DNA of 64,000 bases from Callorhinchus milii (GCF_018977255.1 NW_024704743.1:3350001-3414000); one strand, 5' to 3'. Positions 221 through 56,420 are shown, counted from the stretch's first letter. Notes: a model not told the origin generated them from the sequence alone. Made by a program: numbers and translations.

Positions 221-3200
221 AAACCTGGAAACCCATCAAGGACCCGTGGGCCATCACAAAGCGCCAAGGTAATGGATACAGCCTGCTCTTGTCAATCTGG
301 GCCTTTCTTCTATTTCTCAATGGAATTGCTTCACAAGGAATCGACTTCCGGCGAAATTCCCATACCATTCCTTACCAGCAATCCCGTTCGAGGGCCTCAA
401 TGCTATTCCCCCATTTCTCTGTTTTATTCTGTGAAGTGCTTTGAGACATCTCAATAATGTGATAAGGAGCTATATTGAATGCAATGATTATTACTATTAA
501 TAACGATAGTTCCATCAGGACAACTGCACAGTGAAGGAGCTCTCCAACCAACTCAACAGCTCAGTCTGGCTATTGCTTGAAAATTTCTATGGGATGAAAG
601 TTAACATCAGTGACACAACTTAAACTTGTGTTGTGCAGCTGAAGTCATCGATTTCAATGTTCTATTTCTCGTCTTCAAACCTTTCACGTATCGGCACCTC
701 CCTATCTTTCTACCCACTCCTCCACTCGCTGCCTCTATTCAGTTGGCTCAGGGCTCCTGCTTGACCTTTGTTCCCTCCACTGACAAGCGATGGCTGCGCA
801 TTCAATACGACTCTCCGAAGCTTTGGAAATTACTCCCTCTGCATCGTCCCCTCCTTCCTCACTTTTAGATCTTCCAGGGCACTGCTGATGGCAGCACAGA
901 CAGCCTGGCTCATCGGCAAGACCTAGAAGGGCAGACCAGTCACTTGGGACTCATCCCATTCATGTCTTGTTAACCCTGCAAGCCAAAGCTCTGACAGTTA
1001 GGGTAGTCCTTGCTGGACAAGCAGTGGGAAAGCTTGCCGGACAGCAACATCAATTGCAAACTATGCAATTTTAGATGGTTAGACATCAGCAGTTTCCCCT
1101 GATGCAGACTATGGGTTCCCCAAGCCTTGTCTTTTGCCAAACTGCACCTAATAGTTTCTGGAATTACGTAAGCACTATGTGTCCCTCCAGGGAGAGAATG
1201 CGCATTCCATTCCAACAATCTATCGCTGGGATTTCCATGTGTAGGTGGGATGCATGGAATTCCCAGTTTGGTTTGGATACTCTTAAACACGATGATGGGT
1301 ATCCATATGTGTCAGACACTCGGCTGACACCGCACCAGAAAAATCTTTCAGATCACAACTGAAGACCATCCACTTTGATTGTTTTGTTGGTCTCCTCCCC
1401 CCTCTCCCACGGCTCGGCCATTGCCAAGCGCTCTGAGACGATGCCCCATGCGAAGGGCACTGGGCAAGTGCAGGTTGTTGTTGTGGTTGAGTTGGGTAAG
1501 TGCAGGTTGATGCTGTGCCCACTGTTAATGTTCTTGTCCTTTCCCAGAAACCTGGAAACCCATCAAGGACCCGTGGGCCATCACAAAGCGCCAAGGTAAT
1601 GGAGACAGCCTGCTCTTGTCAATCTGGGCCTTTCTTCTATTTCTCAATGGAATTGCTTCGTAAGGAATCGACCTCTGGTGAAATTCCACTCCATTGCTTA
1701 CCAGCAATGCCGTTCGAGAGGCTCAATTATATGCTCCTGTTTCTCTGTGAAGTGCTTTAAGACATGTCAATGATGTGATAAGGAGCTATATTGAATGTAA
1801 GGATTATTAGTATCAATTACGATAGTTCCATCAGGACATCTACACAGTGAAGGAGCCGCCAACCATCTCAACACCTGGGTCTGGCTATTGCTTGAAAGTT
1901 TCTATGGGATGAAGGTTAACATCAGTGACACAACGTGAACTTGTGTTGTGTAGCTCACGTCATCGATTTCAAGGTTCTATTTCTTGTCTTCAAACTTTTC
2001 ACGTATCGGCACCTCCCTATCTTTCTAACCTGCTTTCTACCAACTCCTCCACTCGCTGCCTCTATTCAGTTGGCTCAGGGCTCCTATTTGTCCTTTGTTC
2101 CCTCCACTCCACAAGCGATGGCTGCGCTTTCAATACTACTCTCCGAAATTTTGGAAATTACTCCCTCTGCATCGTCCACACCTTCCTCACTTTTTGATCT
2201 TCCAGGGCACTGCTGACGACAGCACAGACAGCCTGGCTCATCAGCAGGACCTGGAAGGGCAGACCAGTCACTCGGGGCAGTGATTCATCATACTCATGTC
2301 TTGTTAACCCTGCAAGCCAAAGCCCTGATAGTTAGGGTGGTCCTTGCTGGAGAAGCAGTGGGAAAGCTTGCCGGACAGCAACATCAATTGCAAACTATGT
2401 GGTTTTAGATGGTTAGGCTTGAGCAGTTACCCCTAATGCAGACTCTGGGATCCCCAAGCCTTGGCTCTTGCCAGCCTACGCCTAATAGTTTCTGGAATTA
2501 CGTAAGCACGATGTGTCCCTCCAGGGAGAGATTGCGCATTCCATTCCAACAATCTATCGCTGGGATTTCCATGTGTAGGTGGGATGCATGGAATTCTCAG
2601 TTTGGTTTGGATACTTTTAAACACGATGATGGGTATCCGTATGTGTCAGAGACACTCGGCTGACACCGCCCCAGAAAAATCTTTCAGATCACAACTGAAG
2701 ACCATCCACTTTGACTGTTTGCTCGGTCTCCTCCCCCTCTCCCACGGCTCGGCCATTGCCAAGTGCTCTGAAACGCTGCGCCATGTGAAGGGCACTGGGC
2801 AAGTGCAGGTAGTTGTTGTGGTTGAGTTGGGTAAGCGCAGGTTGATGCTGTGGCCACTGTTGATGTTCTTCTCCTTTCCCAGAAACATGGAGACCCACCA
2901 AGGACCCATGGACCACCACCAGGCGCCAAGGTAATGGAGACAGCCTGCTCTTGTCAATCTGGGCCTTTCTTGTATTTCTCAATGGAATTGCTTCGTAAGG
3001 AATCGACTTCTGGTGAAATTCCACTCCATTCCTTTCCAGCAATCCCGTTCGAGGGGCTCAATGCTATTCCCCCATTTCTCTGTTTTATTCTGTGAAGTGC
3101 TTTGAGACATCTCAATGATGTGATAAGGAGCTATATTGAATGCAATGATTATTACTATTAATAACGATAGTTCCATCAGGACAACTGCACAGTGAAGGAG

Positions 3201-6200
3201 CTCTCCAACCAACTCAACAGCTCAGTCTGGCTATTGCTTGAAAATTTCTATGGGATGAAGGTTAACATCAGTGACACAACTTAAACTTGTGTTGTGCAGC
3301 TGAAGTCATCGATTTCAATGTTCTATTTCTCGTCTTCAAACCTTTCACGTATCGGCACCTCCCTATCTTTCTACCCACTCCTCCACTCGCTGCCTCTATT
3401 CAGTTGGCTCAGGGCTCCTATTTGTCCTTTGTTCCCTCCACTGACAAGCGATGGCTGCGCATTCAATACGACTCTCCGAAGCTTTGGAAATTACTCCCTC
3501 TGCATCGTCCCCTCCTTCCTCACTTTTAGATCTTCCAGGGCACTGCTGATGGCAGCACAGACAGCCTGGCTCATCGGCAAGACCTGGAAGGGCAGACCAG
3601 TCACTCGGGACTCATCCCATTCATGTCTTGTTAACCCTGCAAGCCAAAGCCCTGACAGTTAGGGTAGTCCTTGCTGGACAAGCAGTGGGAAAGCTTGCCG
3701 GAGAGCAACATCAATTGCAAACTATGCAGTTTTAGATGGTTAGACATCAGCAGTTTCCCCTGATGCAGACTATGGGTTCCCCAAGCCTTGTCTTTTGCCA
3801 AACTGCACCTAATAGTTTCTGGAATTACGTAAGCACTATGTGTCCCTCCAGGGAGAGAATGCGCATTCCATTCCAACAATCTATCGCTGGGATTTCCATG
3901 TGTAGGTGGGATGCATGGAATTCCCAGTTTGGTTTGGATACTCTTAAACACGATGATGGGTATCCATATGTGTCAGACACTCGGCTGACACCGCCCCAGA
4001 AAAATCTTTCAGATCACAACTGAAGACCATCCACTTTGATTGTTTTGTTGGTCTCCTCCCCCCTCTCCCACGGCTCGGCCATTGCCAAGCGCTCTGAGAC
4101 GATGCCCCATGCGAAGGGCGCTGGGCAAGTGCAGGTTGTTGTTGTGGTTGAGTTGGGTAAGTGCAGGTTGATGCTGTGCCCACTGTTGATGTTCTTGTCC
4201 TTTCCCAGAAACCTGGAAACCCATCAAGGACCCGTGGGCCATCACAAAGCGCCAAGGTAATGGAGACAGCCTGCTCTTGTCAGCCTGGGCCTTTCTTCTA
4301 TTTCTCAATGGAATTGCTTCACAAGGAATCGACTTCCGGCGAAATTCCCATACCATTCCTTACCAGCAATCCCGTTCGAGGGGCTCAATGCTATTCCCCC
4401 ATTTCTCTGTTTTATTCTGTGAAGTGCTTTGAGACATCTCAATGATGTGATAAGGAGCTATATTGAATGCAATGATTATTACTATTAATAACGATAGTTC
4501 CATCAGGACAACTGCACAGTGAAGGAGCTCTCCAACCAACTCAACAGCTCAGTCTGGCTATTGCTTGAAAATTTCTATGGGATGAAGGTTAACATCAGTG
4601 ACACAACTTGAACTTGTGTTGTGTAGCGCAAGCCATCAATTTGAAGGTTCTATTACTCATCTTCAAACCTTTCACGTATCAGCACCTCTCCATCTTTCCA
4701 AGCTGCTTTCTACCCACTCTTCCACTCGCTGCCTCTATTCAGTTGGCTCAGGACTCCTACTTGTCCCTTGGTCCCTCCACTCCAAAATCGCTGGCTGCGC
4801 TTTCAGCCACTACTCTCTGAAGCTTTGGAAATTTCTCCCTCAATCGCTCTGCATCGTCCTCACTTCTAGATCTTCCAGGGCACTGCTGATGACAGCACAG
4901 ACAGCTGATTGGCAGGACCTGGAAGTGCAGATCAGTCAATCGGGGCAGGAATTCATCCCACTCATGTCCTTGTTAACCCAGCAAGCCAAAGCCCTGACGG
5001 TTAGGTTGGTCCTAGCTGGACAAGCAGCGGGAAAGCTTGCCGGATAACAACATTATTGCAAGCTTGTGGTTTTAGATGGTTAGGCTTCAGCAGTTACGCC
5101 TAATGCAGACTCTAGGATCCCCAAGCCTTGGCTCTTGCCAGCCTACGCCTAATAGTTTCTGGAATTACGTAAGCACTATGTGTCCCTCCAGGGAGAGAAT
5201 GCGCATTTCATTCCAACAATTTTTCTCTGGGATTTCCAAGTGTAGGTGGGCTGCATGGGAATCTCAGCTTGGTTTGGCCACTCTTAAACACAGTAATGGG
5301 TTTCTGCATATGTCAGACACCCGGCTGAGCACCACCGCCCCCCAAATCTTTCAAATCACAACTGAAGACCATAAACTTTGACAGTCCTTATGGCCATCTC
5401 CTCCCGCTCACCCGGCCAAGGGCTCTGAGATGCTGCCCCATATGACGGGCACTGGGCAAGTGCAGGTTGTTGTTGTGGTTGAGTTGGGTAAGTGCGGGTT
5501 GAGGCTGTGCCCACTGTTGATGTTCTTGTCCTTTCCCAGAAACCTGGATTCCAATCAAGGACCCGTGGACCACCACAAGGCGCCAAGGTAATAATAATAA
5601 TAATAATAATCCTTGCATTTGATATAGCGCTTTTCATGTCGGGAGGACGTCCCAAAGCGTTTCACAGAACACAATGTAAAGTGAATTGACTGTATATTTG
5701 TCGGCGAACACGGCAGCCAATGGAGCACAGCAATGTCCCACAAACAATCGTGGATTGAAAATGACCAATTTATTATTGTGTTTTTTTTGGAGGGATTATT
5801 ATTAGGCTCTGTGTGGAGTAAGGAAACTTGCCCAAGGTTTCGCCCTGCCTGGAATTGAACTCAGGTCTCTCGCTTGCAAAGCGAGTGCTCAAACCACTGA
5901 GCTACAGGACTCCACGACAGCGTGCTCTTGTCAGTCTGGGCCTTTCTTCTATTTCTCAATGGAATTGCTTCATAAGGAATCGACTTCGGGTGAAATTCCA
6001 TTCCATTCCTTACCAGCAATCCCGTTCGAGGGGGTCAATGCTATTCTCCTGTTCCTCTGTGAAGTGCTTTGAGACATGTCAATGTTCTGATAAGGAGCTA
6101 TATTGAATGCAAGGATTATTACTATTAATAACGATAATTCCATCAAGACAATTGCATAGTTAAGGAGCCGCCAACCAACTCCACACCTTGGTCTGGCTAT

Positions 6201-8794
6201 TGCTTGAAAGGTTCTATGGGATGAGGGTTAACATCAGTGACACAACTTGAACTTGTGTTGTGGAGCTGAAGTCATCGATTTCAAGGTTCTATTTCTCATC
6301 TTCAAACCTTTCACGTATCGGCACCTCCCTATCTTTCTAACCTGCTTTCTACCCACTCCTCCACTCACTGCCTCTATTCAGTTGGCTCAGGGCTCCTATT
6401 TGTCCTTTGTTCCCTCCACTCCACAAGCAATGGCTGCGCTTTCAACACTACTCCCCGAAGCTTTGGAAATGACTCCCTCTGCATCGTCCACACCTTCCTC
6501 ACTTTTAGATCTTCCAGGGCACTGCTGATGACAGCACAGAGAACCTGGCTCATCGGCAGGACCTGGAAGGGCAGACCAGTCACTCGGGGCAGGGATTCAT
6601 CCCACTCATGTCTTGTTAACCCTGCAAGCCAAAGCCCTGATAGTTAGGGTGGTCCTTGCTGGGCAAGCAATGGGAAAGCTTGCCGCACAGCAACATCAAT
6701 TGCAAACTATGCGGTTTTAGATGGTTAGACTTCAGCAGTTACCCCTAATGCAGACTAGGGTTCCCCAAGCCTTGTCTTTTGCCAAACTGCACCTAATAGT
6801 TTCTGGAATTGGTTAAGCACTATGTGTCCCTCCAGGGAGAGAGATTGCGCATTCCATTCCATCAATCTATCAATGGGATTTCCATGTGTAGGTGGGATGC
6901 ATGGAATACTCAATTTGGTTTGGATACTCTTAAACACGGTGATGGGTATCCGTATGTGTCAGACACGCGGCTGACACCGCCCCATAAAAATCTTTCAGAT
7001 CACAACTGAAGACCATCCACTTTGACTGTTTGTTCGGTCTCCTCCCCCTCTCCCACGGCTCGGCCATTGCCAAGCAATCTGAGACGCTGCCCCATGTGAA
7101 GGGCACTGGGCAAGTGCAGGTTGTTGTTGTGGTTGAGTTGGGTAAGTGCAGGTTGATGCTGTGGCCACTGTTGATATTCTTGTCCTTTCCCAGAAACATG
7201 GAGACCCACCAAGGACCCGTGGACCACCACAAAGCACCAAGGTAATGGAGACAGCCTGCTCTTGTCAATCTGGGCCTTTCTTCTATTTCTCAATGGAATT
7301 GCTTCGTGAGGAATCGACCTCTGGTGAAATTCCACTCCATTGCTTACCAGCAATGCCATTCGAGAGGCTCAATTATATGCTCCTGTTTCTCTGTGAAGTG
7401 CTTTAAGACATGTCAATGATGTGATAAGGAGCTATATTGAATGTAAGGATTATTAGTATCAATTACGAAAGTTCCATCAGGACATCTACACAGTGAAGGA
7501 GCCGCCAACCAACTCAACACCTTGGTCTGGCTATTGCTTGAAAGGTTCTATGGGATGAAGGTTAACATCAGTGACACAACTTGAACTTGTGTTGTGTAAC
7601 TCAAGTCATCGATTTCAAGGTTCTATTTCTCATCTTCAAACCTTTCACGTATCGGCACCTCCCTATCTTTCTAACCTGCTTTCTACCCACTCCTCCACTC
7701 GCTGCCTCTATTCAGTTGGCTCAGGGCTCCTATTTGTCCTTTGTTCCCTGTACTTCACAAGCGATGGCTGCGCTTTCAACAATACTCTCCGAAGCTTTGG
7801 AAATTACTCCCTCTTCATCGTCCACTCCTTCCTCACTTTTAGATCTTCCAGGGCACTGCTGATGACAGCACAGATAGCCTGGCTCATTGGCAGGACCTGG
7901 AAGGGCAGAGCAGTCACTCGGGGCAGAAATTTATCCCACTCATGTCTTGTTAACCCTGCAAGCCAAAGCCCTGACAGTTAGGGTGGTCCTTGCTGGGCAA
8001 GCAGTGGGAAAGCTTGTCGGACAGCAACATCAATTGCAAACCATGCGGTTTTAGATGGTTAGACTTCAGCAGTTACCCCTAATGCAGACTCTGGGATCCC
8101 CAAGCCTTGTCTTTTGCCAAACTGCACCTAATAGTTTCTGGAATTGGTTAAGCAGAATGTGTCCCTCCAGGGAGAGAGATTGCGCATTCCATTCCAACAA
8201 TCTATCGCTGGGATTTCCATGTGTAGGTGGGATGCATGGAATTCTCAGTTTGGTTTGGATACTCTTAAACACGGTGATGGGTATCTGTATGTGTCAGACA
8301 CTCGGCTGACACCGCCCCAGAAAAATCTTTCAGATCACAACTGAAGACCATCCACTTTGACTGTTTGTTTGGTCTCCTCCCCCCTCCCCCACAGCTCGGC
8401 CTTTGCCAAGCGCTCTGAGACCCTGCCCCATGTGAAGGGCAATGGGCAAGTGAAGGTTATTGTTGTGGTTGAGTTGGCTAAGTGCAGGTTGATGCTTTGG
8501 CCACTGTTGATGTTCTTCTCCTTTCCCAGAAACATGGAGACCCACCAAGGACCCATGGACCACCACCAGGCGCCAAGGTAATGGAGACAGCCTGCTCTTG
8601 TCAATCTGGGCCTTTCTTCTATTTCTCAATGGAATTGCTTCATAAGGAATCGACTTCTGGTGAAATTCCACTCCATTCCTTACCAGCAATCCCGTTCGAG
8701 CAGCTCAATGCTATTCTCCTGTTCCTCTGTGAAGTGCTTTGAGACATGTCAATGATGTGATAAGGAGCTATATTGAATGCAAGTACTAATAATC

Positions 8795-8830
<36 letters not shown>

Positions 8831-11800
8831 CAGTACTAATAACGATCGTTACATCAGGACATCTGCACAGTGAAGGAGCCGCCAACCAACTCAACACCTT
8901 GGTCTGGCTATTGCTTGAAAGTTTCTATGGGACGAAGGTTAACATCAGTGACACAACTTGAACTTGTGTTGTGTAGCTCACGTCATCGATTTCAAGCTTG
9001 TATTTCTCGTCTTCAAACCTTTCCTCCACCTCCCTATCTTTCTAATCTGCTTTCTACCCACTTCTCCTCTCGCTACCTCTATTCAGTTGGCTCAGTGCTC
9101 CTGCTTGTCCCTTGGTCCCTCCACTCCAAAATTGCTGGCTGCGCATTCAGCCACTACTCTCCGAAGCTTTGGAAATTTTTCCCTCAATCCCTCTGCATCA
9201 TTCTCTCCTTTCTCACTTTTCAATCTTCCAGGGCACTGCTGATGGCAGCACAGACAGCCTGGCTCATCGGCAGGACCTGTAAGGGCAGACCAGTCACTTG
9301 GGGCAGGGATTCATCCCATTCATTTCTTCTTAACCCAGCAAGCCAAAGCCGTAACGGTTTGGGTGATCCAAGTTGGACAAGCAGCGGGAAAGCTTGCCGG
9401 GCAGCAACATCAATTGCAAACTATGTAGTTTTACATAGTTAGGCTTGAGCAGTTACCCCTAATGCAGACTCTGGGATCCCCAAGCCTTGGCTCTTGCCAG
9501 CCTATGCCTAATAGTTTCTGGAATTATGTAAGCACTATGTGTCCCTCTAGGGAGAGAATGCGCATTTCATTGCAACAAATTTTCTCTGGGATTTCCAAGT
9601 GTAGGTGGGCTGCATGGGAATCTCAGCTTGGTTTGGCTACTCTTAAACACGGTAATGGGTTTCTGCATGTGTCAGACACCCGGCTGAGCACCACCGCCCC
9701 CCAAATCTTTCAAATCACAACTGAAGACCATAAACTTCGACAGTCCTTATGGCCATCTCACCCCGCTCACCCGGCAAAGGGCTCTGAGATGCTGCCTCAT
9801 TTGACGGGCATTGGGCAAGTGCAGGTTGTTGTTGTGGTTGAGTTGGGTAAGTACAGGTTGATGCTGTGGCCACTGTTGATGTTCTTGTCCTTTCCCAGAA
9901 ACATGGAAACCCACCAAGGACCCGTGGACCACCACCAAGCGCCAAGGTAATGGAGACAGCCTGCTCTTGTCAGCCTGGGCCTTTCTTCTATTTCTCAATG
10001 GAATTGCTTCATAAGGAATCGACTTCTGGTGAAATCTCCACGCCATTCCTTACCAGCAGTCCTGTTCGAGGGTCTCAGTGATATTCTCCTGTTTCTCTGT
10101 GAAGTGCTTTGAGACATGTCAATGTTCTGATAAGCAGCTATATTGAATGCAAGGATTATTACTATTGATAACGATAATTCCATCAAGACAATTGCATAGT
10201 TAAGGAGCCGCCAACCAACTCAACACCTTGGTCTGGCTATTGCTTGAAAGGTTCTATGGGATGAAGGTTAATTTCAGTGACACAACTTGAACTTGTGTTG
10301 TGTAGCTCACGTCATCGATTTCAAGGTTCTATTTCTCATCTTCAAACTTTTCACGTATCGGCACCTCCCTATCTTTCTAACCAGCTTTCTACCCACTCCT
10401 CCACTCGCTGCCTCTATTCAGTTGGCTCAGGGCTCCTATTTGTCCTTTGTTCCCTCCACTCCACAAGCGATGGCTGCGCTTTCAACACTACTCCCCGAAG
10501 CTTTGGAAATGACTCCCTCTGCATCGTCCACTCCTTCCTCACTTTTAGATCTTTCAGGGCACTGCTGATGACAGCACAGACAGCCTGGCTCATCAGCAGG
10601 ACCTGGAAGGGCAGACCAGTCACTCGGGGCAGGGATTCATCCCACTCATGTCTTGTTAACCCTGCAAGCCAAAGCCCTGATAGTTAGGGTGGTCCTTGCT
10701 GGAGAAGCAGTGGGAAAGCTTGCCGGACAGCAACATCAATTGCAAACTATGTGGTTTTAGATGGTTAGGCTTGAGCAGTTACCCCTAATGCAGACTCTGG
10801 GATCCCCAAGCATTGGCTCTTGCCAGCCTACGCCTAATAGTTTCTGGAATTACGTAAGCACTATGTGTCCCTCCAGGGAGAGATTGCGCATTTCATTCCA
10901 ACAATCTATCTATCGCTGGGATTTCCATGTGTAGGTGGGCTGCATGGAATTCTCAGTTTGGTTTGGCTACTCTTAAACACGATGATGGGTATCCGTATGT
11001 GTCAGACACTCGGCTGACACGGCCCCATAAAAATCTTTCAGATCACAACTGAAGACCATCCACTTTGACTGTTTGTTCGGTCTCCTCCCCCTCTCCCATG
11101 GCTCGGCCATTGCCAAACGCTCTGAAACGCTGCCCCATGTGAAGGGCACTGGGCAAGTGCAGGTTGTTGTTGTGGTTGAGTTGGGTAAGCGCAGGTTGAT
11201 GCTGTGGCCACTGTTGATATTCTTGTCCTTTCCCAGAAACATGGAGACCCACCAAGGACCCATGGACCACCACTAGGCGCCAAGGTAATGGAGACAGCCT
11301 GCTCTTGTCAATCTGGGCCTTTCTTCTATTTCTCAATGGAATTGCTTCGTAAGGAATCGACCTCTGGTGAAATTCCACTCCATTCCTTACCAGCAATCCG
11401 TTCGAGAGGCTCAATTATATGCTCCTGTTTCTCTGTGAAGTGCTTTAAGACATGTCAATGATGTGATAAGGAGCTATATTGAATGTAAGAATTATTAGTA
11501 TTAATAACAATAGTTCCATCAGGACATCTGCACAGTGAAGGAGCCGCCAACCAACTCAACACCTTGGTCTGGCTATTGCATGAAAGTTTCAATGGGATGA
11601 AGGTTAACATCAGTGACACAACTTAAACTTGTGTTGTGTAGCTGAAGTCATCGATTTCAATGTTCTATTTCTCGTCTTCAAACCTTTCACGTATCGGCAC
11701 CTTCCTATCTTTCTACCCACTCCTCCACTCGCTGCCTCTATTCAGTTGGCTCAGGGCTCCTGCTTGACCTTTGTTCCCTCCACTGACAAGCGATGGCTGC

Positions 11801-14800
11801 GCATTCAATACGACTCTCCGAAGCTTTGGAAATTACTCCCTCTGCATCGTCCCCTCCTTCCTCACTTTTAGATCTTCCAGGGCACTGCTGATGGCAGCAC
11901 AGACAGCCTGGCTCATCGGCAAGACCTGGAAGGGCAGACCAGTCACTCGGGATTCATCCCATTCATGTCTTGTTAACCCTGCAAGCCAAAGCCCTGACAG
12001 TTAGGGTAGTCCTTGCTGGACAAGCAGTGGGAATGTTTGCCGGACAGCAACATCAATTGCAAACCATTCGGTTTTAGATAGTTAGACATCAGCAGTTTCC
12101 CCTGATGCAGACTACGGGTTCCCCAAGCCTTGTCTTTTGCCAAACAGCACCTAATAGTTTCTGGAATTAGTTAAGCAGGATGTGTCCCTCCAGGGAGAGA
12201 GACTGTGCATTCCATTCCAACAATCTATCGCTGGGATTTCCATGTGTAGGTGGGATGCATGGAATTCCCAGTTTGGTTTGGATACTCTTAAACACGATGA
12301 TGGGTATCCGTATGTGTCAGACACTCGGCTGACACCGCCCCAGAAAAATCTTTCAGATCACAACTGAAGACCATCCACTTTGACTGTTTTTTTGGTCTCT
12401 CCCCCCTCTCCCACGGCTCGGCCATTGCCAAGCGATCTGAGACGCTGCCCCATGCACTGGGCAAGTGCAGGTTGTTGTTGTGGTTGAGTTGGGTAAGCGC
12501 AGGTTGATGCTGTGGCCACTGTTGATGTTCTTCTCCTTCCCAGAAACATGGAGACCCACCAAGGACCCATGGACCACCACCAGGCGCCAAGGTAATGGAG
12601 ACAGCCTGCTCTTATCAATCTGGGCCTTTCTTCTATTTCTCAATGGAATTGCTTCGTAAGGAATCGACCTCTGCTGAAATTCCACTCCATTCCTTACCAG
12701 CAATGCCGTTCGAGAGGCTCAATTATATGCTCCTGTTTCTCTGTGAAGTGCTTTAAGACATGTCAATGATGTGATAAGGAGCTATATTGAATGTAAGGAT
12801 TATTAGTATCAATTACGATAGTTCCATCAGGACATCTATACAGTGAAGGAGCCGCCAACCATCTCAACACTTGGGTCTGGCTATTGCTTGAAAGGTTCTA
12901 TGGGATGAAGGTTAACATCAGTGACACAACGTGAACTTGTGTTGTGTAGCTCACGTCATCGATTTCAAGGTTTTATTTCTTGTCTTCAAACCTTTCACGT
13001 AACGGCACCTCCCTATCTTTCTAACCTGCTTTCTACCAACTCCTCCACTCGCTGCCTCTATTCAGTTGGCTCAGGGCTCCTATTTGTCCTTTGTACCCTC
13101 CACTCCACAAGCGATGGCTGCCCTTTCAACACTACTCTCCGGAGCTTTGGAAATGACTCCCTCTGCATCGTCCACTCCTTCCTCACTTTTAGATCTTCCA
13201 GGGCACTGCTGATGACAGCACAGACAGCCTGGCTCATCAGCAGGACCTGGAAGGGCAGACCAGTCACTCGGGGCAGGGATTCATCCCACTCATGTCTTGT
13301 TAACCCTGCAAGCCAAAGCCCTGATAGTTAGGGTGGTCCTTGCTGGAGAAGCAGTGGGAAAGCTTGCCGGACAGCAACATCAATTGCAAACTATGTGGTT
13401 TTAGATGGTTAGGCTTGAGCAGTTACCCCTAATGCAGACTCTGGGATCCCCAAGCATTGGCTCTTGCCAGCCTACGCCTAATAGTTTCTGGAATTACGTA
13501 AGCACTATGTGTCCCTCCAGGGAGAGATTGCGCATTCCATTCCAACAATCTATCGCTGGGATTTCCATGTGTAGGTAGGATGCATGGAATTCTCAGTTTG
13601 GTTTGGATACTCTTAAACACGATGATGGGTATCCGTATGTGTCAGACATTCGGCTGACACCGCCCCATAAAAATCTTTCAGATCACAACTGAAGACCATC
13701 CACTTTGACTGTTTGTTTGGTCTCCTCCCCCCTCTCCCATGGCTCGGCCATTGCCAAACGCTCTGAAACGCTGCCCCATGTGAAGGGCACTGGGCAAGTG
13801 CAGGTTGTTGTTGTGGTTGAGTTGGGTAAGTGCAGGTTGATGCTGTGGCGACTATTGATGTTCTTGTCCTTTCCCAGAAACATGGAGACCCACCAAGGAT
13901 CCATGGACCACCACTAGGCGCCAAGGTAATGGAGACAGCCTGCTCTTGTCAGCCTGGGCCTTTCTTCTATTTCTCAATGGAATTGCTTCGTAAGGAATCG
14001 ACCTCTGGTGAAATTCCACTCCATTGCTTACCAGCAATCCCGTTCGAGGGGCTCCTGTTTCTCTGTGAAGTGCTTTAAGACATGTCAATGATGTGATAAG
14101 GAGCTATATTGAATGTAAGGATTATTAGTATCAATTACGATAGTTCCATCAGGACATCTACACAGTGAAGGAGCCGCCAACCAACTCAACACCTTGGTCT
14201 GGCTATTGCTTGAAAGGTTCTATGGGATGAAGGTTAACATCAGTGACACAACTTGAACTTGTGTTGTGTAGCTCACGCCATCGATTTCAAGATTCTGTTT
14301 CTTGTCTTCAAACCTTTCACGTATCAGCACCTCCCTATCTTTCTAACCTGCTTTCTACCCACTCCTCCACTCGCTGCCTCTATTCAGTTGGCTCAGGGCT
14401 CCTATTTGTCCTTTGTTCCCTCCACTCCACAAGCGATGGCTGCGCTTTCAACACTACTCTCCGAAGCTTTGGAAATGACTCCCTCTGCATCGTCCACTCC
14501 TTCCTCACTTTTAGATCTTCCAGGGCACTGCTGACGACAGCACAGACAGCCTGGCTCATCGGCAGGACCTGGAAGGGCAGACCAGTCACTCGGGGCAGGG
14601 ATTCATCCCACTCATGTCTTGTTAACCCTGCAAGCCAAAGCCCTGATAGTTAGGGTGGTCCTTGCTGGGGAAGCAGTGGGAAAGCTTGCCGGACAGCAAC
14701 ATCAATTGCAAACTATGTGGTTTTAGATGGTTAGGCTTGAGCAGTTACCCCTAATGCAGACTCTGGGATCCCCAAGCCTTGGCTCTTGCCAGCCTACGCC

Positions 14801-35405: not shown

Positions 35406-35410
35406 GCTAG
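35406..35410 (+). CDS. Gene A probable terminal exon (G-stop), with 3' UTR to about 35890
   Basis: ctgac...ttctcgtacag|GC TAG; AATAAA at 35866-35871. An alternative acceptor near 35168 cannot be excluded. Confidence 0.55.
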
Positions 35411-35865: not shown

Positions 35866-35871
35866 AATAAA
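35866..35871 (+). terminator. Polyadenylation signal (AATAAA) for gene A
   Basis: First AATAAA I see downstream of the putative stop, followed by GT/T-rich sequence. Confidence 0.5.
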
Positions 35872-39290: not shown

Positions 39291-39294
39291 AGTA

Positions 39295-40218: not shown

Positions 40219-40256
40219 TATATAGAAGTGAATGTTACCTTGAAAAGTTGCTGCTG

Positions 40257-40426
40257 TTAGTCGCAAGGTGTGTCACACCTGTTTTTCCATGGGTTGAACT
40301 CCATGTCAGGAGGACAGGTCAAATGGATGGTTTTGCTATTCATACACTGGTAGAAACTCGACTTATTGGCTGGGTCTTTGTAGAATCCGTCAGGCTTCCA
40401 ACAGCAGAAATTTGGCTCAACATATG
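40257..40426 (-). CDS. Gene B last coding exon: CBM14 #8 plus stop (AYVEPNFCCWKPDGFYKDPANKSSFYQCMNSKTIHLTCPPDMEFNPWKNRCDTPCD*)
   Basis: Hand-translated; not in the ORF track. ttgccttgcag acceptor, phase 1, TAA at 40259-40257; AAG|GTAACA donor 18 nt after the stop. Confidence 0.88.
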
Positions 40427-42684: not shown

Positions 42685-42897
42685 CTGTAGTGCTTGGACT
42701 GGGCATGGCTGAGCTCGGCTGGACATTGATTGGAAAGTCACACACGCTGCTTTGTGAGTTGAAGATGAGACCAGGTGGGCAGCTCAAGTGGAACGTTCTC
42801 CTAAATGCGCACTGATAGAAGCTGGAGCTGTCCTTTGGATCGATGTAGAGGCCATCGGGTTTCAAGTTGCAAAAGTTGGGATCCACCTGGTCAGGTC
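42685..42897 (-). CDS. Gene B exon 9: CBM14 #7
   Basis: Tandem copy of the 213-nt exon with intact splice sites and frame. Confidence 0.88.
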
Positions 42898-43716
42898 CTG
42901 CAGGAGCATCACAACGTCAGCTATGGGCAGCCCTGAACTAACCACATGGGCTTGGGACTGGCTCAGAACATCTGACGCTGGGTTGACAATAAGCAAAGGT
43001 AAAATCATCACTGATTGGTGTTCAATGGTAGATAGCCCCTAGGGTCCTTGGTTCCTGAGGTTCACTCAAGCTAGATTGACGAACTCCCCAGAAAATCTCT
43101 GGTCAAGAGGTCCCTTCTTCCCAATTGATCTCAACCTTCCATACTACTCCCAAACTGATCATTTTCCATTCAGAGTGCACACATTGATCTGGAATCCCAA
43201 TCCCATCTCCTCTCATGACAACATCAGTGTTTCTCCCAGACTCTACCATCTCAGCTGTCCATCCGTCCAGTACAAGGAAATACTTCCTGGTGTGCACCCT
43301 ACAATTTCCCTTCACACCCTTTGAACCCATGGGTGTCCTCAGTGTAGCCCAAAGGAATATTCTCGTTGACTTTTTTCCTTCCCAATCCCAAACACTTCTT
43401 TTTTGGCTCTGAGGTTGGGGCAACAACCACTCTATGTGACAGGGACTGGACACACAACACTTCAGGCATGGTTGGAACATAGCTCATGTAGCATGAGCTG
43501 GACTTCTGGGCATCGGAACTCAACTGGTTGGCAATGGAGCCCACCATCCTGATTGGCCTGGGTTTCTGTCTTACAGAGTTGAGACATCGTGAGAAATGAG
43601 ACAATTCACACCCCCAGATCTCTTTCACTTTTCCCCAAGGCAATTTCAATCCTTCCCATGTCATATCCCCTGATCGTAGCATCCTATTAAATTGATCTGC
43701 AATGACTCTCATGTAC

Positions 43717-43929
43717 CTGTAGTGCTTGGACTGGGCACGGCTGAGCTGGGCTGGACATTGATTGGAAAGTCACACACGCTGCTTTGTGGGTTGAAGATGA
43801 GACCAGGTGGGCAGCTCAAGTGGAATGTTCTCCCAAATGCACACTGATAGAAGCTGGAGCTGTCCTTTGGATCGATGTAGAGGCCATCGGGTTTCAAGAT
43901 GCAAAAGTTGGGATCCACCTGGTCAGGTC
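43717..43929 (-). CDS. Gene B exon 8: CBM14 #6
   Basis: Tandem copy of the 213-nt exon with intact splice sites and frame. Confidence 0.88.
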
Positions 43930-44771
43930 CTGCAGGAGCAGCACAGCATCATCAATGGCCGGGGGCAGACCTGACCTAACCAAATGGGCTTGGGACTGGC
44001 TCAGAATATCTGACGCTCGGTTGACAATGAGCAAAGATAAAATCTTCACTGATTTGTGTTTATTCCGGTCAATGGTAGGTACCTCCTTGGGTCCTTGGTT
44101 CCCGAGGTTCACTCAAGCTATGTTGACAAGCTCTCCAGAGAATCTCTGGTCAAGAGGTGCCTTCAGCCCAATTGATCTCATCCTTCCATACTCCCAAATT
44201 GATTGTCTTCCAATCAAAGTGCCAAACATTGATCTGGAATCCCAATCCTGTCTCCTCTCATGACAACATCAATGTTTCTCCCGGCCTCTACCATCGTCTC
44301 AACTGTCCATCCCACCCTACCCCCACTGTGCAAAGAAATACTTCCTGCTGTAGGCTCTGCAATTGCCCTTCACACCCTTTGAGCCTATGAATGTCCTCAG
44401 TGTAGCCCAAAGGATTATTCTCATGGACTTTTTTCCTTCCCAATCCTAAACTCTTCTTTTTTGGTTCTGGGGTTGGGGCAACCACTCTATGTGACAGGGA
44501 CTGGACAGGCAACCCTCCAGGCGTGGCTTGAGCAGAGCTCATGGAGCATGAGCTGGACTTCTGGGCATCGGAACTCAACTGGTTGGCAATGGAACCCACC
44601 ATTCTGATTGGCCTGGGTTTCTGTCTTGCAGAGTTGAGACATTGCGTGAGTTGAGTTAATTCACATCCCCAGATCTCTTTCACTTTTCCCCAAGGCAATT
44701 TCAATCCTTCCCATGGCATATCCCCTGATCGTAACATCCCATTAAATTGACCTGCATCGAATCTTATGTAC

Positions 44772-44984
44772 CTGTTGTGCTTGGACTGGGCACGGCTGTG
44801 CTGGGCTGGACATTGATTGGAAAGTCACACACGCTGCTTTGTGGGTTGAAGATGAGACCAGGTGGGCAGCTCAAGTGGAACGTTCTCCCAAATGCACACT
44901 GATAGAAGCTGGAGCTGTCCTTTGGATCGATGTAGAGGCCATCGGGTTTCAAGTTGCAAAAATTGGGATCCACCTGGTCAGGTC
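44772..44984 (-). CDS. Gene B exon 7: CBM14 #5
   Basis: Tandem copy of the 213-nt exon with intact splice sites and frame. Confidence 0.88.
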
Positions 44985-45829
44985 CTGCAGGAGCAGCACA
45001 GCATCATCAATGGCCGGGGGCAGACCTGAACTAACCACATGGGCATGGGACTGGCTCAGAATATCTGACGCTCGGTTGACAATGAGCAAAGATAAAATCT
45101 TCACTGATTTGTGTTTATTCTGGTCAATAGTAGGTACCTCCTTGGGTCCTTGGTTCCTGAGGTTCACTCAACGTATGTTGACAAGCTCTCCAGAGAATCT
45201 CTGGTCAAGAGGTGCCTTCTGCCCAATTGATCTCATCCTTCCATACTCCCAAACTGATTGTCTTCCAATCAGAGTGCCAAACATTGATCTGGAATCCCAA
45301 TCCTGTCTCCTCTCATGACAACATCAATGTTTCTCCCATCCTCTACCATTGTCTCAGCTGTCCATCCCACCCTACCCCCACTGTGCAAGGAAATACTTCC
45401 TGGTGTATGTACAGCAATTGCCCTTCACACCTCTTCAGCCTATGGGTGTCCTCAGTGTAGCCCAAAGGATTATTCTCATTGACTTTTTTCCTTCCCAATC
45501 CCAAACTGTTCGCTTTTGGCTCTGGGGTCAGGGCAACTATTCTATGTGACAGAGACTGGAAGAGCACACAACACTCCAGGGTGGTTTGAAGAGAGCTCAC
45601 GTAGCATGAGTTGGATGTCTGGGCATCTGAACTCAACTGGTTGGCAATGGAGCCCACCATCCTGATTGGCCTGGGTTTCTGTCTTGCAGAGTTGAGACAT
45701 CGTGAGAAATGAGACAATTCACACCCCCAGATCTCTTTCACTTTTCCCCAAGGCAATTTCAATCCTTCCCATGTCATATCCCCTGATCGTAACATCCCAT
45801 TAAATTGACCTGCATCGAATCTTATGTAC

Positions 45830-46042
45830 CTGTTGTGCTTGGACTGGGCACGGCTGTGCTGGGCTGGACATTGATTGGAAAGTCACACACGCTGCTTTGT
45901 GGGTTGAAGATGAGACCAGGTGGGCAGCTCAAGTGGAACGTTCTCCCAAATGCACACTGATAGAAGCTGGAGCTGTCCTTTGGATCGATGTAGAGGCCAT
46001 CGGGTTTCAAGTTGCAAAAGTTGGGATCCACCTGTTGAGGTC
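45830..46042 (-). CDS. Gene B exon 6: CBM14 #4
   Basis: Tandem copy of the 213-nt exon with intact splice sites and frame. Confidence 0.88.
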
Positions 46043-46884
46043 CTGCAGGAGCAGCACAGCATCATCAATGGCCGGGGGCAGACCTGACCTAACCAAATGG
46101 GCTTGGGACTGGCTCAGAATATCTGACGCTCGGTTGACAATGAGCAAAGATAAAATCTTCACTGATTTGTGTTTATTCCGGTCAATGGTAGGTACCTCCT
46201 TGGGTCCTTGGTTCCCGAGGTTCACTCAAGCTATGTTGACAAGCTCTCCAGAGAATCTCTGGTCAAGAGGTGCCTTCAGCCCAATTGATCTCATCCTTCC
46301 ATACTCCCAAATTGATTGTCTTCCAATCAAAGTGCCAAACATTGATCTGGAATCCCAATCCTGTCTCCTCTCATGACAACATCAATGTTTCTCCCGGCCT
46401 CTACCATCGTCTCAACTGTCCATCCCACCCTACCCCCACTGTGCAAAGAAATACTTCCTGCTGTAGGCTCTGCAATTGCCCTTCACACCCTTTGAGCCTA
46501 TGAATGTCCTCAGTGTAGCCCAAAGGATTATTCTCATGGACTTTTTTCCTTCCCAATCCTAAACTCTTCTTTTTTGGTTCTGGGGTTGGGGCAACCACTC
46601 TATGTGACAGGGACTGGACAGGCAACCCTCCAGGCGTGGCTTGAGCAGAGCTCATGGAGCATGAGCTGGACTTCTGGGCATCGGAACTCAACTGGTTGGC
46701 AATGGAACCCACCATTCTGATTGGCCTGGGTTTCTGTCTTGCAGAGTTGAGACATTGCGTGAGTTGAGTTAATTCACACCCCCAGATCTCTTTCACTTTT
46801 CCCCAAGGCAATTTCAATCCTTCCCATGTCATATCCCCTGATCGTAGCATCCTATTAAATTGATCTGCAATGACTCTCATGTAC

Positions 46885-47097
46885 CTGTAGTGCTTGGACT
46901 GGGCACGGCTGAGCTGGGCTGGACATTGATTGGAAAGTCACACACGCTGCTTTGTGGGTTGAAGATGAGACCAGGTGGGCAACTCAAGTGGAATGTTCTC
47001 CCAAATGCACACTGATAGAAGCTGGAGCTGTCCTTTGGATCGATGTAGAGGCCATCGGGTTTCAAGATGCAAAAGTTGGGATCCACCTGTTGAGGTC
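46885..47097 (-). CDS. Gene B exon 5: CBM14 #3
   Basis: ctgcag|GACCT acceptor and CAG|GTACAT donor; 213 nt; GPQQVDPNFCILKPDGLYIDPKDSSSFYQCAFGRTFHLSCPPGLIFNPQSSVCDFP... Confidence 0.88.
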
Positions 47098-50486: not shown

Positions 50487-51437
50487 CTGTGGTGGTCACC
50501 AATGTGCTGTCCTCTACCGTTGTGGTTGTGGTTGTTGTAGTGGGGTCCGTTGTAGTGGTGGCTTCAGTTGTTGTGGTAGTGGCTTCAGTCGTTGTGGTAG
50601 TGGCTTCAGTCGTTGTGGTAGTGGCTTTAGTCGTTGTGGTCGGCTGTGTTGTAGTGGTGGCCTCAGTGGTTGTGGTGGGTTGTGTTGTAGTGGTGGCTTC
50701 AGTGGTTGTGGTGGGCTGTGTTGTAGTGGTGGCTTCAGTGGTTGTGGTGGCTTCAGTGGTTGTGGTGGGCTGTGTTGTAGTGGTGGCCTCAGTGGTTGTG
50801 GTGGGTTGTGTTGTAGTGGTGGCTTCAGTGGTTGTGGTGGGCTGTGTTGTAGTGGTGGCTTCAGTGGTTGTGGTGGCTTCAGTGGTTGTGGTGGGCTGCG
50901 TTGTAGTAGTAGCTTCAGTGGTTGTGGTGGGCTGTGTTGTAGTAGTAGCTTCAGTGGTTGTAGTGGGCTGTGTTGTGGTGGCTTCAGTGGTTGTGGTGGG
51001 CTGTGTTGTGGTGGCTTCAGTGGTTGTGGTGGGCTGTGTTGTAGTAGTAGCTTCAGTGGTTGTAGTGGGCTGTGTTGTGGTGGCTTCAGTGGTTGTGGTG
51101 GGCTGTGTTGTGGTGGCTTCAGTGGTTGTGGTGGGCTGTGTTGTAGTAGTAGCTTTAGTGGTTGTGGTGGGCTGTGTTGTAGTAGCTTTAGTGGTTGTAG
51201 TGGGCTGTGTTGTAGTGGTGGCTTCAGTCGTTGTCACACGCTCTGTGGTTCCTGGAGGGGTTGTTACAAAGATAACGATACATGCCTTCACCATGTCGCT
51301 GAAGACCAAATCTGGATCACATTTAACATGGATTGTTTTTCCCAACCGACAAAAGTAGAAACTTGTCACATCTAACGGATCCACATGGACACCATCAGGC
51401 AAGCCAGTGCAGAAGGTTGGAATCGCAGTTGTAGTGC
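50487..51437 (-). CDS. Gene B exon 4: CBM14 #2 (FCTGLPDGVHVDPLDVTSFYFCRLGKTIHVKCDPDLVFSDMVKAC) plus long (TTTEATTTTQP)-type mucin domain
   Basis: ttctcttgcag acceptor and CAG|GTAAAG donor; 951 nt open, phase 1-1; matches ORF 50470..51402. Confidence 0.9.
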
Positions 51438-51734
51438 CTGCAAGAGAAATAGCAACACAGATCTACATCTTGTCAAGCCCTGCTGACCCACATTTATCGA
51501 TAGTCCCTGCAGTTCACAATCCCTGCATTACCCGAAATACTACACGTCTGAACACCTCAAGATAACAAAGTAAGGAACTCCAATGTCATGAGTATTATCA
51601 TAAAGATGGTTTGTTGTGTGTGTACGTATGTGGGAATTGTGGATTGTGTTGCATTACATAAGAACATAAGAATTTGCGGAGCAAAAGAAATCCAAGGTCC
51701 ATCTAGTTTGCCGTCCAGCATCCTGGCAGTCTCA

Positions 51735-52046
51735 CTTGGATCACATTTAACAAGGATTATTTTTCCCAACCGACAAAAGTAGAAACTTATTCAAGATTGA
51801 GATAGCTAGATAGATTTCGTATTACAAAAAGGATTAAGGGATATGGGGATAAGGCAGGGTCAGGTTATTAGCTGGAGTTAGATTAGAAGATCAGCCGTGA
51901 TTGAATGGTGGGGGAGGCTCGAAGGACCGAATGGCCTACTCTTGCTCCTACATGTTATGTTATGTTATCACATTGAGTGGATCCACATCGACACTATCAG
52001 GCAAGCCAGTGCAGAAGGTTGGAATCTCAGACATAGTGCCTGCAAG
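51735..52046 (-). pseudogene. Dead duplicate of the gene B exon-4 CBM14, split by a CR1-type LINE 3' fragment
   Basis: 51737-51788 matches 51313-51364 and 51979-52046 matches 51377-51445; the halves are separated by a LINE tail at ~51789-51968. Confidence 0.8.
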
Positions 52047-52600: not shown

Positions 52601-52606
52601 GTGTAC

Positions 52607-53313
52607 CTTGGGAGGTTGTTGTTGAAGCCACTGTTGTCTGCACTGGGGCCTCTGTGGTCTGCACCGGGGCCTCTGTGGTCTGCACCGGGGCCTCTGTGGT
52701 CTGCACCGGGGCCTCTGTGGTCTGCACCGGGGCCTCTGTGGTCTGCACCGGGGCCTCTGTGGTCTGCACCGGGGCCTCTGTGGTCTGCACCGGGGCCTCT
52801 GTGGTCTGCACCGGGGCCTCTGTGGTCTGCACCGGGGCCTCTGTGGTCTGCACCGGGGCCTCTGTGGTCTGCACCGGGGCCTCTGTGGTCTGCACCGGGG
52901 CCTCTGTGGTCTGCACCGGGCCTCTGTGGTCTGCACCGGGGCCTCTGTGGTCTGCACCGGGGCCTCTGTGGTCTGCACCGGGGCCTCTGTGGTCTGCACC
53001 GGGGCCTCTGTGGTCTGCACCGGGGCCTCTGTGGTCTGCACCGGGGCCTCTGTGGTCTGCACCGGGGCCTCTGTGGTCTGCACCGGGGCCTCTGTGGTCT
53101 GCACCGGGGCCTCTGTTGTTGTGGTTGGCTGTGTTGGTGCGGCAGTTGTTAGTAAAATGCAGAAGTCGATAGGATCGAATATCCGATTGTTTTGACACGT
53201 GCTGTAGATTGATATGTCTCCCAGGCATTGGAAGAAGCTGGCATTGTCATTGGGGTCAGGATAGATGCCAATTGCTTTTCCATGGCAAAATTTAGCAATT
53301 GGAGCACTGGTCC
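52607..53313 (-). CDS. Gene B exon 3: CBM14 #1 (FCHGKAIGIYPDPNDNASFFQCLGDISIYSTCQNNRIFDPIDFC) plus ~23x TTEAPVQ mucin repeat; 1-nt frameshift near 52918-52920
   Basis: ctcttgcag acceptor and AAG|GTACAC donor. The exon is 707 nt, one base short of a multiple of 3; one 21-mer has ggg instead of gggg. Confidence 0.82.
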
Positions 53314-54802: not shown

Positions 54803-54835
54803 CCAATTGTCCGAGGACCATGAAGACCAGTGAGA
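54803..54835 (-). CDS. Gene B exon 2: hydrophobic signal-peptide core (V)SLVFMVLGQL(G)
   Basis: tatttgtttcag acceptor and G|GTGAGT donor; 33 nt, phase 1-1. Confidence 0.8.
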
Positions 54836-56345: not shown

Positions 56346-56361
56346 CTGCGCACAGGTACAT
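56346..56361 (-). CDS. Gene B exon 1: start of signal peptide (MYLCA)
   Basis: gacagccATG context; CAG|GTGAGC donor; phase 1; TATA-like element ~50 nt upstream of the ATG. Confidence 0.75.
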
Positions 56362-56412
56362 GGCTGTCAGCTGGAGTGATCTTCCCACACTGTTCAGGGC
56401 GCCTCTCTCGGC

Positions 56413-56420
56413 TATTTATG
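56413..56420 (-). promoter_or_regulatory. TATA-like box (CATAAATA) of gene B
   Basis: Lies ~50 nt upstream of the ATG, consistent with a short 5' UTR. Confidence 0.55.

What the first reader, a model, noticed from the sequence alone, without database searches (positions are those of the whole stretch)
221..56420. Convergent two-gene cassette of repeat-expanded, chitin-module mucins beside SLC52A3
Genes A (+) and B (-) end about 2 kb apart. Both use only phase-1 introns, both have Thr/Pro repeats and CBM14-related modules, and both grew by tandem exon duplication. Gene A repeats are net basic (R/K) while gene B mucin repeats are acidic (E). Inference: they may be paralogous, co-secreted parts of one chitin-based gel, barrier or extracellular matrix.
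Basis: inference. Interest (0 to 1): 0.78.

Follow-up and report, generated by a model that had tools for sequence, protein, structure and literature searches.

The report
Chimaera chitin-binding mucin and neighbour
An elephant-shark gene encodes a secreted mucin with eight chitin-binding modules, built like the proteins that hold insect gut linings together, and it ends next to an unannotated repeat-protein gene with a decayed module of the same kind, but nothing yet shows that the two proteins work together.

Summary
Both genes are in the sequence. Gene B (minus strand) has a signal peptide, eight CBM14 modules and two acidic Thr-rich mucin tracts. It matches the Callorhinchus milii model XP_007899433.1 'mucin-2-like', which omits the signal-peptide exon and has no MUC2-type domain. 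The layout is that of insect peritrophins and intestinal mucins, but the modules are four-cysteine, chitotriosidase-like ones. Gene A (plus strand, start outside the window) has 26 tandem phase-1 exons coding basic Trp/Thr/Pro repeats that show coding constraint (pN/pS 0.35-0.37, no stop in 24 of 24 full copies). It ends in a 12-cysteine domain with no Pfam hit and only weak CBM14 likeness; both core disulfides are broken. No public protein for gene A was found. Recent paralogy is not supported: exons and UTRs share no clear DNA homology, and the A domain is nearer to an outside CBM14 protein than to gene B. Co-expression and co-secretion could not be tested. Verdict: gene B is a good candidate chitin cross-linker for a chondrichthyan gel or gut lining; the charge-paired two-gene cassette is a hypothesis.

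The parts
221..32423 (+). Gene A: 25 tandem small exons (24 of 48 nt, one of 46 nt at 16527), one per 1.33-kb unit; typical reading TWRPTKDPWTTTRRQ. The array runs off the window's left end
   Evidence: pN/pS 0.35-0.37, no stop in 24 of 24; AG and GTAAT invariant
33233..33334 (+). Gene A: 102-nt exon, last array unit, with an internal 18-nt repeat (KDPWTT x4)
33826..33882 (+). Gene A: 57-nt Pro-rich linker exon, phase 1-1
   Evidence: splice sites read from sequence
34673..34876 (+). Gene A: 204-nt exon, phase 1-1; 12-Cys domain, Cys/Gly-rich start followed by a degenerate CBM14-like stretch
   Evidence: same letters in a contig of run X2
35406..35890 (+). Gene A: predicted last exon; stop at 35408-35410, AATAAA at 35866 (3' end approximate)
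   Evidence: inferred, no spliced transcript seen
37965..38448 (-). Gene B: predicted non-coding last exon; AATAAA at 37983-37988 (3' end approximate)
   Evidence: inferred
40239..40426 (-). Gene B: last coding exon, CBM14 module 8 (6 Cys), stop at 40257-40259, donor 18 nt after the stop
   Evidence: (34.8 bits)
42685..47097 (-). Gene B: five 213-nt exons (42685-42897, 43717-43929, 44772-44984, 45830-46042, 46885-47097), CBM14 modules 3-7 with short Ser/Thr/Pro linkers
   Evidence: (51-54 bits for the two scanned)
50487..51437 (-). Gene B exon 4: CBM14 module 2 plus a 259-residue Thr-rich acidic mucin tract (66% Thr+Ser)
51720..52040 (-). Decayed duplicate of the start of gene B exon 4, interrupted by an insertion of about 180 nt
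52607..53313 (-). Gene B exon 3: CBM14 module 1 plus 23 EAPVQTT-type units; one unit is 1 nt short in this assembly
54803..54835 (-). Gene B exon 2 (33 nt): hydrophobic core of the signal peptide; absent from the public model
   Evidence: peak 7-residue hydropathy 2.9 with it, 1.14 without
56346..56361 (-). Gene B exon 1 coding part (ATG at 56361)
56413..56420 (-). TATA-like CATAAATA, 52-59 nt upstream of the gene B ATG
   Evidence: sequence only
63300..63512 (-). SLC52A3 last coding exon (neighbour; no functional link shown)

Best explanation
Gene B makes a secreted protein of about 980 residues that works like an insect peritrophin or intestinal mucin. Its five intact internal CBM14 modules bind chitin or a similar GlcNAc polymer by avidity and cross-link fibrils, and its O-glycosylated, acidic Thr tracts hold water and resist proteases. 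The result is a chitin-protein gel or lining, most likely in the ampullae of Lorenzini, the gut or the skin. It was built from chitinase-type four-cysteine modules by phase-1 exon duplication, so it resembles insect proteins by convergence. Gene A is a separate, fast-evolving repeat-protein gene: a long unfolded chain of basic Trp/Thr/Pro repeats that would stick to polyanions or sugar rings, ending in a decayed CBM14 whose extra cysteines more likely cross-link chains than form a normal chitin-binding fold. The two genes are at most old relatives, and joint action is not shown. Shown: exon structure, domains, charge, constraint. Inferred: secretion of A, glycosylation, ligand, tissue.
For: Gene B: CBM14 above cut-off in 5 of 5 modules scanned; human chitotriosidase CBM14 among the top PDB matches (52 bits); CBM_14 is the only Pfam family on the public model; signal peptide restored by exon 2. 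Both core disulfide pairs (PMC4844120) are present in 8 of 8 modules. The binding pocket P451/G453/L454 with an aromatic residue at the W465 position (PMC5459812) is kept in modules 3-7 (Phe). Chitin is reported in chondrichthyan ampullary gel, including a chimaera (10.1101/687301), and how it is complexed is stated as unknown (PMC8379299). Gene A: its frame has the lowest pN/pS of the six (0.37) and no stops; 18 of 1238 overlapping intron windows do as well; the only invariant GTRA donor in the unit is this exon's. Its domain's best hit among 1.84 billion proteins is a 12-module CBM14 protein; 0 of 2000 shuffles reach its score on two of three CBM14 profiles.
Against: No ligand, tissue or transcript was shown. 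Modules 1, 2 and 8 of gene B lack the aromatic residue at the W465 position. CBM14 also binds hyaluronan and N-glycans, so the ligand need not be chitin. Gene B exon 3 is out of frame by 1 nt in this assembly; the public model is in frame but has 3 units, not 23. Gene A's domain has no Pfam hit, hhalign probability 15%, pLDDT about 52-54 in both models; its E-value of 3e-9 is summed over 11 near-identical repeats, and an unrelated FG-GAP repeat protein got 9e-5 the same way. On the gene B-only profile 2 of 2000 shuffles and three repeat-derived frames of the window score as high or higher. Array copies are not independent, so the selection tests are approximate (Fisher p 0.02-0.04).
Confidence: 0.58

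Rival explanations
1. One reading: A and B are paralogues secreted by the same cells, and the basic A chains pair with acidic B mucin tracts (and with keratan sulfate) to set a chitin-based gel.
For: Adjacent and convergent; both all phase 1; both end in a CBM14-type exon of about 200 nt followed by an almost non-coding last exon; opposite net charge; the A domain beats shuffles against most gene B modules (0-3 of 1000 for six of eight).
Against: No clear DNA homology of exons or UTRs (2, 21, 25, 28 and 73 of 200 shuffles reach the exon scores, 7 of 200 the UTR score). The A domain scores 48-64 against 11 of 12 modules of P0004 but 29-41 against gene B (P0004 was picked as best hit, which inflates this). 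A keeps a Cys at the second position of the six-Cys peritrophin-A pattern that all B modules lack. Tail-to-tail genes share no promoter (general knowledge). Glycosylation may cancel A's charge.
Confidence: 0.17
2. Gene A is a multi-copy peptide precursor: each repeat ends in a dibasic pair followed by Gln, so convertases would release many copies of a short Trp/Pro-rich cationic peptide, for defence or signalling.
For: 21 of 24 full exons end in RRQ (17) or KRQ (4); both Trp, the Lys-Asp-Pro core and the Gln are invariant. Dibasic-Gln sites in multi-copy precursors are recalled knowledge, not from a call.
Against: The most diverged, 3'-most units lack the pair (KCQ, RCQ, and the 102-nt exon). 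Thr runs directly before the pair would hinder cleavage if glycosylated (inference). No signal peptide can be seen, as the 5' end is outside the window.
Confidence: 0.1
3. Gene A is dead or never was a gene: a satellite of retroposon fragments carrying a pseudo-exon, with a chance Cys-rich frame behind it.
For: Most of each unit matches dispersed repeats elsewhere in the window; one exon copy is frameshifted; no public protein found for the domain or the repeat; the selection signal is modest.
Against: Splice sites invariant in 25 of 25 aligned units against 614 of 1214 invariant intron columns; 1 of 56 distinct gap events falls in the exon; codon-level constraint only in the phase-1 frame; three further phase-1 exons continue the frame to a stop and a poly(A) signal.
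Confidence: 0.1
4. Gene B is not structural: it is a soluble mucosal lectin or decoy that binds foreign chitin (prey cuticle, fungi, parasites) or host glycans.
For: Its modules are of the chitotriosidase type, an immune and digestive lineage; CBM14 binds hyaluronan and N-glycans too; it has no polymerising domain.
Against: Eight modules spaced by long mucin tracts is the layout of matrix cross-linkers; endogenous chitin is reported in chondrichthyans. This rival overlaps the best explanation: one protein could do both.
Confidence: 0.2

Closest known systems
Insect peritrophins and invertebrate/insect intestinal mucin (IIM) of the peritrophic matrix
   Same: Signal peptide, many CBM14 modules, Thr/Pro-rich mucin tracts, no catalytic domain (gene B; definitions).
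   Different: Gene B modules have four Cys (7 of 8), not the six-Cys peritrophin-A pattern, and are close to human chitotriosidase CBM14; vertebrate host; tissue unknown.
CBM14 of vertebrate GH18 chitinases (CHIT1, AMCase)
   Same: Sequence, two core disulfides and the hydrophobic pocket are kept in modules 3-7.
   Different: Chitinases carry one CBM14 behind a GH18 domain; gene B has eight and no GH18; Trp465 is Phe in five modules and lost in three; the Cys460-Cys462 pair is absent.
Ciona VCBP-C and Ci-GFM1 (chordate gut chitin-membrane proteins, PMC6109156)
   Same: Secreted chordate proteins with CBM14 that bind the animal's own chitin barrier.
   Different: One CBM14 each, joined to Ig-V domains or to a VWD-type gel-forming mucin scaffold; gene B has neither.
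Gel-forming mucins (MUC2), the source of the public name 'mucin-2-like'
   Same: Thr-rich PTS tracts.
   Different: No VWD, C8, TIL or cystine-knot hit on the public model; the name reflects composition only.
P0004, an unnamed 768-residue protein with 12 four-Cys CBM14 modules
   Same: Hydrophobic N-terminus, tandem four-Cys CBM14 modules with short Thr linkers; 27 of 47 identities to gene B module 3; best hit of the gene A domain.
   Different: No long mucin tract; keeps Trp at the W465 position; its organism could not be determined.

Membership tests
CBM14 (PF01607), gene B modules | Pfam score above the curated cut-off | tested here: met
   28-54 bits against 22.1 in 5 of 5 scanned; 7 stretches on the public model
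CBM14 (PF01607), gene B modules | Two core disulfides (CHIT1 C420-C440, C450-C463) | tested here: met
   All four Cys present in 8 of 8 (definition)
CBM14 (PF01607), gene B modules | Exposed aromatic residue at the W465 position with its pocket | tested here: inconclusive
   Phe with P-P-G-L-I pocket in modules 3-7; Leu, Val, Thr in modules 1, 2, 8
CBM14 (PF01607), gene B modules | Binds chitin | not testable with these tools
   Needs a binding assay
CBM14 (PF01607), gene A domain | Pfam score above the curated cut-off | tested here: not met
   No family reported at E up to 10
CBM14 (PF01607), gene A domain | Two core disulfides | tested here: not met
   First and third Cys align; the second falls in a 2-residue gap and the fourth is Trp. 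Twelve Cys overall, so other pairings are possible
CBM14 (PF01607), gene A domain | Detectable homology to CBM14 sequences | tested here: inconclusive
   Best of 2 hits among 1.84 billion is a CBM14 repeat protein; 7-10 bits on local profiles, 0-2 of 2000 shuffles; hhalign 15%, E 0.002; none by BLASTP to module 3
CBM14 (PF01607), gene A domain | Aromatic residue at the W465 position | tested here: met
   Trp in the aligned column
CBM14 (PF01607), gene A domain | Distorted beta-sandwich fold | tested here: inconclusive
   Models of pLDDT 53.5 and 52.2; the second shows two hairpins but was given gene B modules as alignment; no fold match
Peritrophins / insect intestinal mucin | Six-Cys peritrophin-A pattern CX14-15CX5CX9CX12CX7C | tested here: not met
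   Pattern; gene B has four Cys in 7 of 8 modules, module 8 has six in another spacing
Peritrophins / insect intestinal mucin | Signal peptide plus several chitin-binding modules plus PTS mucin tract, no catalytic domain | tested here: met
   (signal peptide judged by hydropathy only)
Peritrophins / insect intestinal mucin | O-glycosylated and part of a gut chitin matrix | not testable with these tools
   No tissue or protein data
Gel-forming mucins (MUC2 type) | VWD-C8-TIL assemblies and cystine knot | tested here: not met
   CBM_14 is the only Pfam family on P0003
GH18 chitinases | GH18 catalytic domain | tested here: not met
   None on P0003; the exon chain from ATG to stop leaves no room for one. 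Gene A's 5' part was not available

The most novel reading that the evidence does not exclude
These two genes are the protein scaffold of the chitin gel in chimaera electrosensory canals, or of a chondrichthyan gut membrane: a vertebrate peritrophin-like cross-linker, evolved anew from a chitinase module, co-secreted with a cationic, Trp-rich, disulfide-polymerising partner that condenses with it and with keratan sulfate. It would be a peritrophic-matrix-type protein pair in a jawed vertebrate, with gene A a protein family that has no match in the collections searched.
Probability: 0.13. Interest if true: 0.85.

Novelty: new variant of a known kind. Interest (0 to 1): 0.56.

Why it matters
Vertebrate chitin is reported from fish gut and from the ampullary gel of sharks, rays and chimaeras, but the proteins that organise it are not identified; one paper states that it is unknown whether ampullary chitin is complexed with other components (PMC8379299). 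Another contrasts chordate gut membranes with insect ones on the ground that proteins made of many chitin-binding and PTS domains are typical of insects (PMC6109156). Gene B has that insect-type layout in a jawed vertebrate, hidden under the name 'mucin-2-like' and with its signal exon missing from the public model. It gives a named target for gel proteomics and binding assays. Gene A adds an apparently unannotated repeat protein whose peptides can be looked for in the same samples.

Tried and rejected
Expression: no RNA holder listed for 34660-35900 (12 runs listed, 5 hold part or all, none on record as RNA). Four of the 12 were laid on 32300-43300. X1 (RNA is a guess) has one 206-nt contig of depth 3.3 inside gene A's predicted 3' UTR (35619-35824), with no splice joint listed; X12, the same sample, has no depth in that bin; low-level DNA would explain it as well. 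X1, X12 and X6 have no depth in the bins of gene B's UTR exon and module 7 exon. None of this is used for or against expression. Synteny in sharks, rays and bony fish could not be tested: no genome is held for this window and the genome tools cover prokaryotes. The source organism of P0004 stays unknown. Homologue searches for gene A were blank: domain, longer proteins (0 of 4 candidates), repeat exon with flanks (0 of 221), ESM Atlas, PDB sequences (three chance rows). Fold searches with both low-confidence models found nothing. The Atlas search with P0003 gave only arthropod CBM14 clusters at 0.82-0.85, a lead only. P0005 (FG-GAP repeats) rejected as a repeat-summing artefact. CBM-like scores of frames at 643-780, 3304-3441 and 32190-32324 rejected as chance: they lie in dispersed-repeat sequence that looks like an L2 retroposon end (label recalled). 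A second coding exon per array unit was considered and rejected: the other candidate frames lie in dispersed repeats, carry stops in some units, and no other invariant GTRA donor exists. Rfam found only three tRNA-like SINE heads. No complex prediction was run: the proposed contact is between unfolded, glycosylated tracts. Earlier scan notes held nothing on this locus.
Full report
Organism and setting. One gene B exon is 100% identical to XP_007899433.1, 'mucin-2-like' of Callorhinchus milii, the only hit among 14 candidates. The gene at the right end of the window is SLC52A3: its last exon scores 80 bits against human SLC52A3 and 52 against SLC52A2. No whole genome was available, so all structure is from the window.

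Gene B. The model has ten coding exons on the minus strand, all joined in phase 1, and a predicted non-coding last exon. Exon 2 (33 nt) is missing from the public model; with it the N-terminus has a hydrophobic core (peak 2.9 over 7 residues, 1.14 without), as expected of a signal peptide. There are eight CBM14 modules; the 5 scanned all pass Pfam's cut-off, and CBM_14 is the only family on the public protein. Module 3 matches human chitotriosidase CBM14 at 52 bits, second of 8 PDB rows. All eight keep the four Cys of the two disulfides called essential in PMC4844120 (passages seen). PMC5459812 (passages seen) names P451, L454 and W465 as the residues that matter most for binding. Modules 3-7 keep the pocket and have Phe for Trp; modules 1, 2 and 8 have lost the aromatic residue. 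Two acidic Thr tracts follow modules 1 and 2. The window has 23 units in the first tract and five internal module exons; the public model has 3 and 4. One unit is 1 nt short (52905-52924). A long-read error in a near-perfect repeat is the likely cause, but it was not tested. Read in frame, the protein has about 980 residues.

Gene A. The left 33 kb is an array of 26 units of about 1.33 kb, with mean identity 83-92% and the 3'-most units the most diverged. Each unit has one small exon: 24 of 48 nt, one of 46 nt, one of 102 nt. Three lines point to coding constraint. The AG and the first five donor bases are invariant in all 25 aligned units, while 614 of 1214 intron columns are; 32 of 48 exon columns are invariant (Fisher p 0.04). 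The phase-1 frame has pN/pS 0.35-0.37 and no stop in 24 of 24 copies, the lowest ratio of the six frames. Of 1238 overlapping intron windows, 53 have as low a ratio and 18 also lack stops. The copies share history, so these are approximate. Behind the array come a 57-nt Pro-rich exon, a 204-nt Cys-rich exon and a last exon that opens with a stop, all in phase 1. A contig of run X2 covers the 204-nt exon without a difference. The 5' end, and any signal peptide, is outside the window. No public protein was found for the domain or the repeat.

Is gene A's domain a CBM14? Pfam says no and BLASTP to module 3 finds nothing. But phmmer over 1.84 billion proteins returns two hits, and the better one, P0004, consists of 12 CBM14 modules. 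Its E-value is summed over near-identical repeats, and the second hit is an unrelated repeat protein, so the number is inflated. On profiles built from gene B, from P0004 and from both, the domain scores 7.3, 9.0 and 9.7 bits, reached by 2, 0 and 0 of 2000 shuffles; on the P0004 profile it is the best of 942 six-frame segments outside gene B, but on the gene B profile it is not. hhalign gives 15%. The alignment is colinear over about 45 residues and keeps the Trp at the W465 position, but the second and fourth core Cys are gone. Two AlphaFold models stayed near pLDDT 53 and matched no fold. I put descent from CBM14 at about 70%, and normal chitin binding lower.

Are A and B paralogues that act together? 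DNA matches between the two genes are dispersed or simple repeats only; exon and UTR scores are within or near the shuffled range. The A domain scores 48-64 against 11 of 12 P0004 modules and 29-41 against gene B modules, and it has a Cys at the second position of the six-Cys peritrophin-A pattern that gene B lacks. So a recent inverted duplication is unlikely; an old common origin is possible. Phase-1 symmetry is what lets any exon be duplicated without a frameshift and is common in extracellular modular proteins (general knowledge), so it is weak evidence of kinship. The charge contrast is real, but 28% of the A repeat is Thr, and acidic O-glycans could cancel it. Co-expression was not testable with the runs on offer.

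Mechanism. Gene B most likely binds a GlcNAc polymer through five intact modules at once, which would offset the weak affinity of one module (Kd 9.9 mM for the trimer in CHIT1), and uses its mucin tracts as hydrated spacers. That is how peritrophins and insect intestinal mucin are described (PMC4227266, passages seen). Chitin and chitin synthase expression are reported in chondrichthyan ampullae, including a chimaera's gel (10.1101/687301, part 1 of 2 of the text read); chitin membranes are reported in hagfish and ray-finned fish guts, with no mention of sharks (PMC6109156, passages seen). Which tissue applies is open. Gene A most likely gives an unfolded cationic, aromatic chain with a Cys-rich end that cross-links. 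A rival reading comes from the repeat itself: 21 of 24 copies end in a dibasic pair plus Gln, the pattern of multi-copy peptide precursors (recalled).

Novelty. Gene B exists as an automatic model under a misleading name. The layout is known from insects, and PMC6109156 treats it as an insect trait. Ten literature searches listed no paper on a vertebrate multi-CBM14 mucin; the accession, the KDPWTT motif and 'vertebrate peritrophin' had no hits. A mucin survey that covers C. milii has no occurrence of 'chitin' or 'CBM' (PMC4948705, passages seen); a catshark sensory-organ paper has none of 'chitin' or 'mucin' (10.1101/2024.05.23.595469, term search); PMC10234404, PMC1945033 and PMC7663561 (passages seen) mention CBM14 only on chitinases or insect proteins. 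The library lacks most subscription papers, among them the skate gel proteome (Zhang et al. 2018, seen only as a citation), and no supplements were read; either could already list such a protein. From memory, automatic annotations of other fishes also hold multi-CBM14 proteins, so gene B may not be unique; this was not checked. I rate the locus a new variant of a known kind, interest 0.56.

Noticed in passing
window 21891-26468: A two-unit block of the gene A array is duplicated at 99.5% identity (units 21891/22975 and 24293/25375), with shortened units: a very recent higher-order duplication or an assembly duplication.
   Followed up: partly
window 51720-52040 (-): Decayed second copy of the start of gene B exon 4 (module 2) with an intact-looking acceptor, split by an insertion of about 180 nt: a failed exon duplication.
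   Followed up: partly
window 5840-5911, 30531-30586, 42079-42143: tRNA-like SINE heads; two of them sit inside array units and explain the two long units of 1654 and 1668 nt.
   Followed up: partly
window 40239-40256 and 35406-35410: Both genes end with an almost wholly non-coding last exon: gene B has a donor 18 nt after its stop, gene A has its stop in the first full codon of the last exon. Predicted, not seen in RNA.
   Followed up: no
window 34675-34722 (+): The gene A domain opens with eight Cys in 16 residues, rich in Gly, a possible chain-cross-linking or metal-binding segment with no database match.
   Followed up: partly
window 28021-28068 and 32376-32423: Two of the oldest repeat exons end in Cys-Gln instead of Arg-Gln, giving possible free thiols near the C-terminal domain.
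   Followed up: no
window 55371-56330: A 960-nt degenerate GGAGA microsatellite fills most of gene B intron 1; a retroposon reverse-transcriptase fragment (label recalled) lies in intron 2 at about 53640-54750.
   Followed up: no
P0003 against window 52607-53313 and 42685-47097: The public model has 3 tract units and 4 internal module exons where the window has 23 and 5: collapsed repeats in an older assembly, or length polymorphism.
   Followed up: partly
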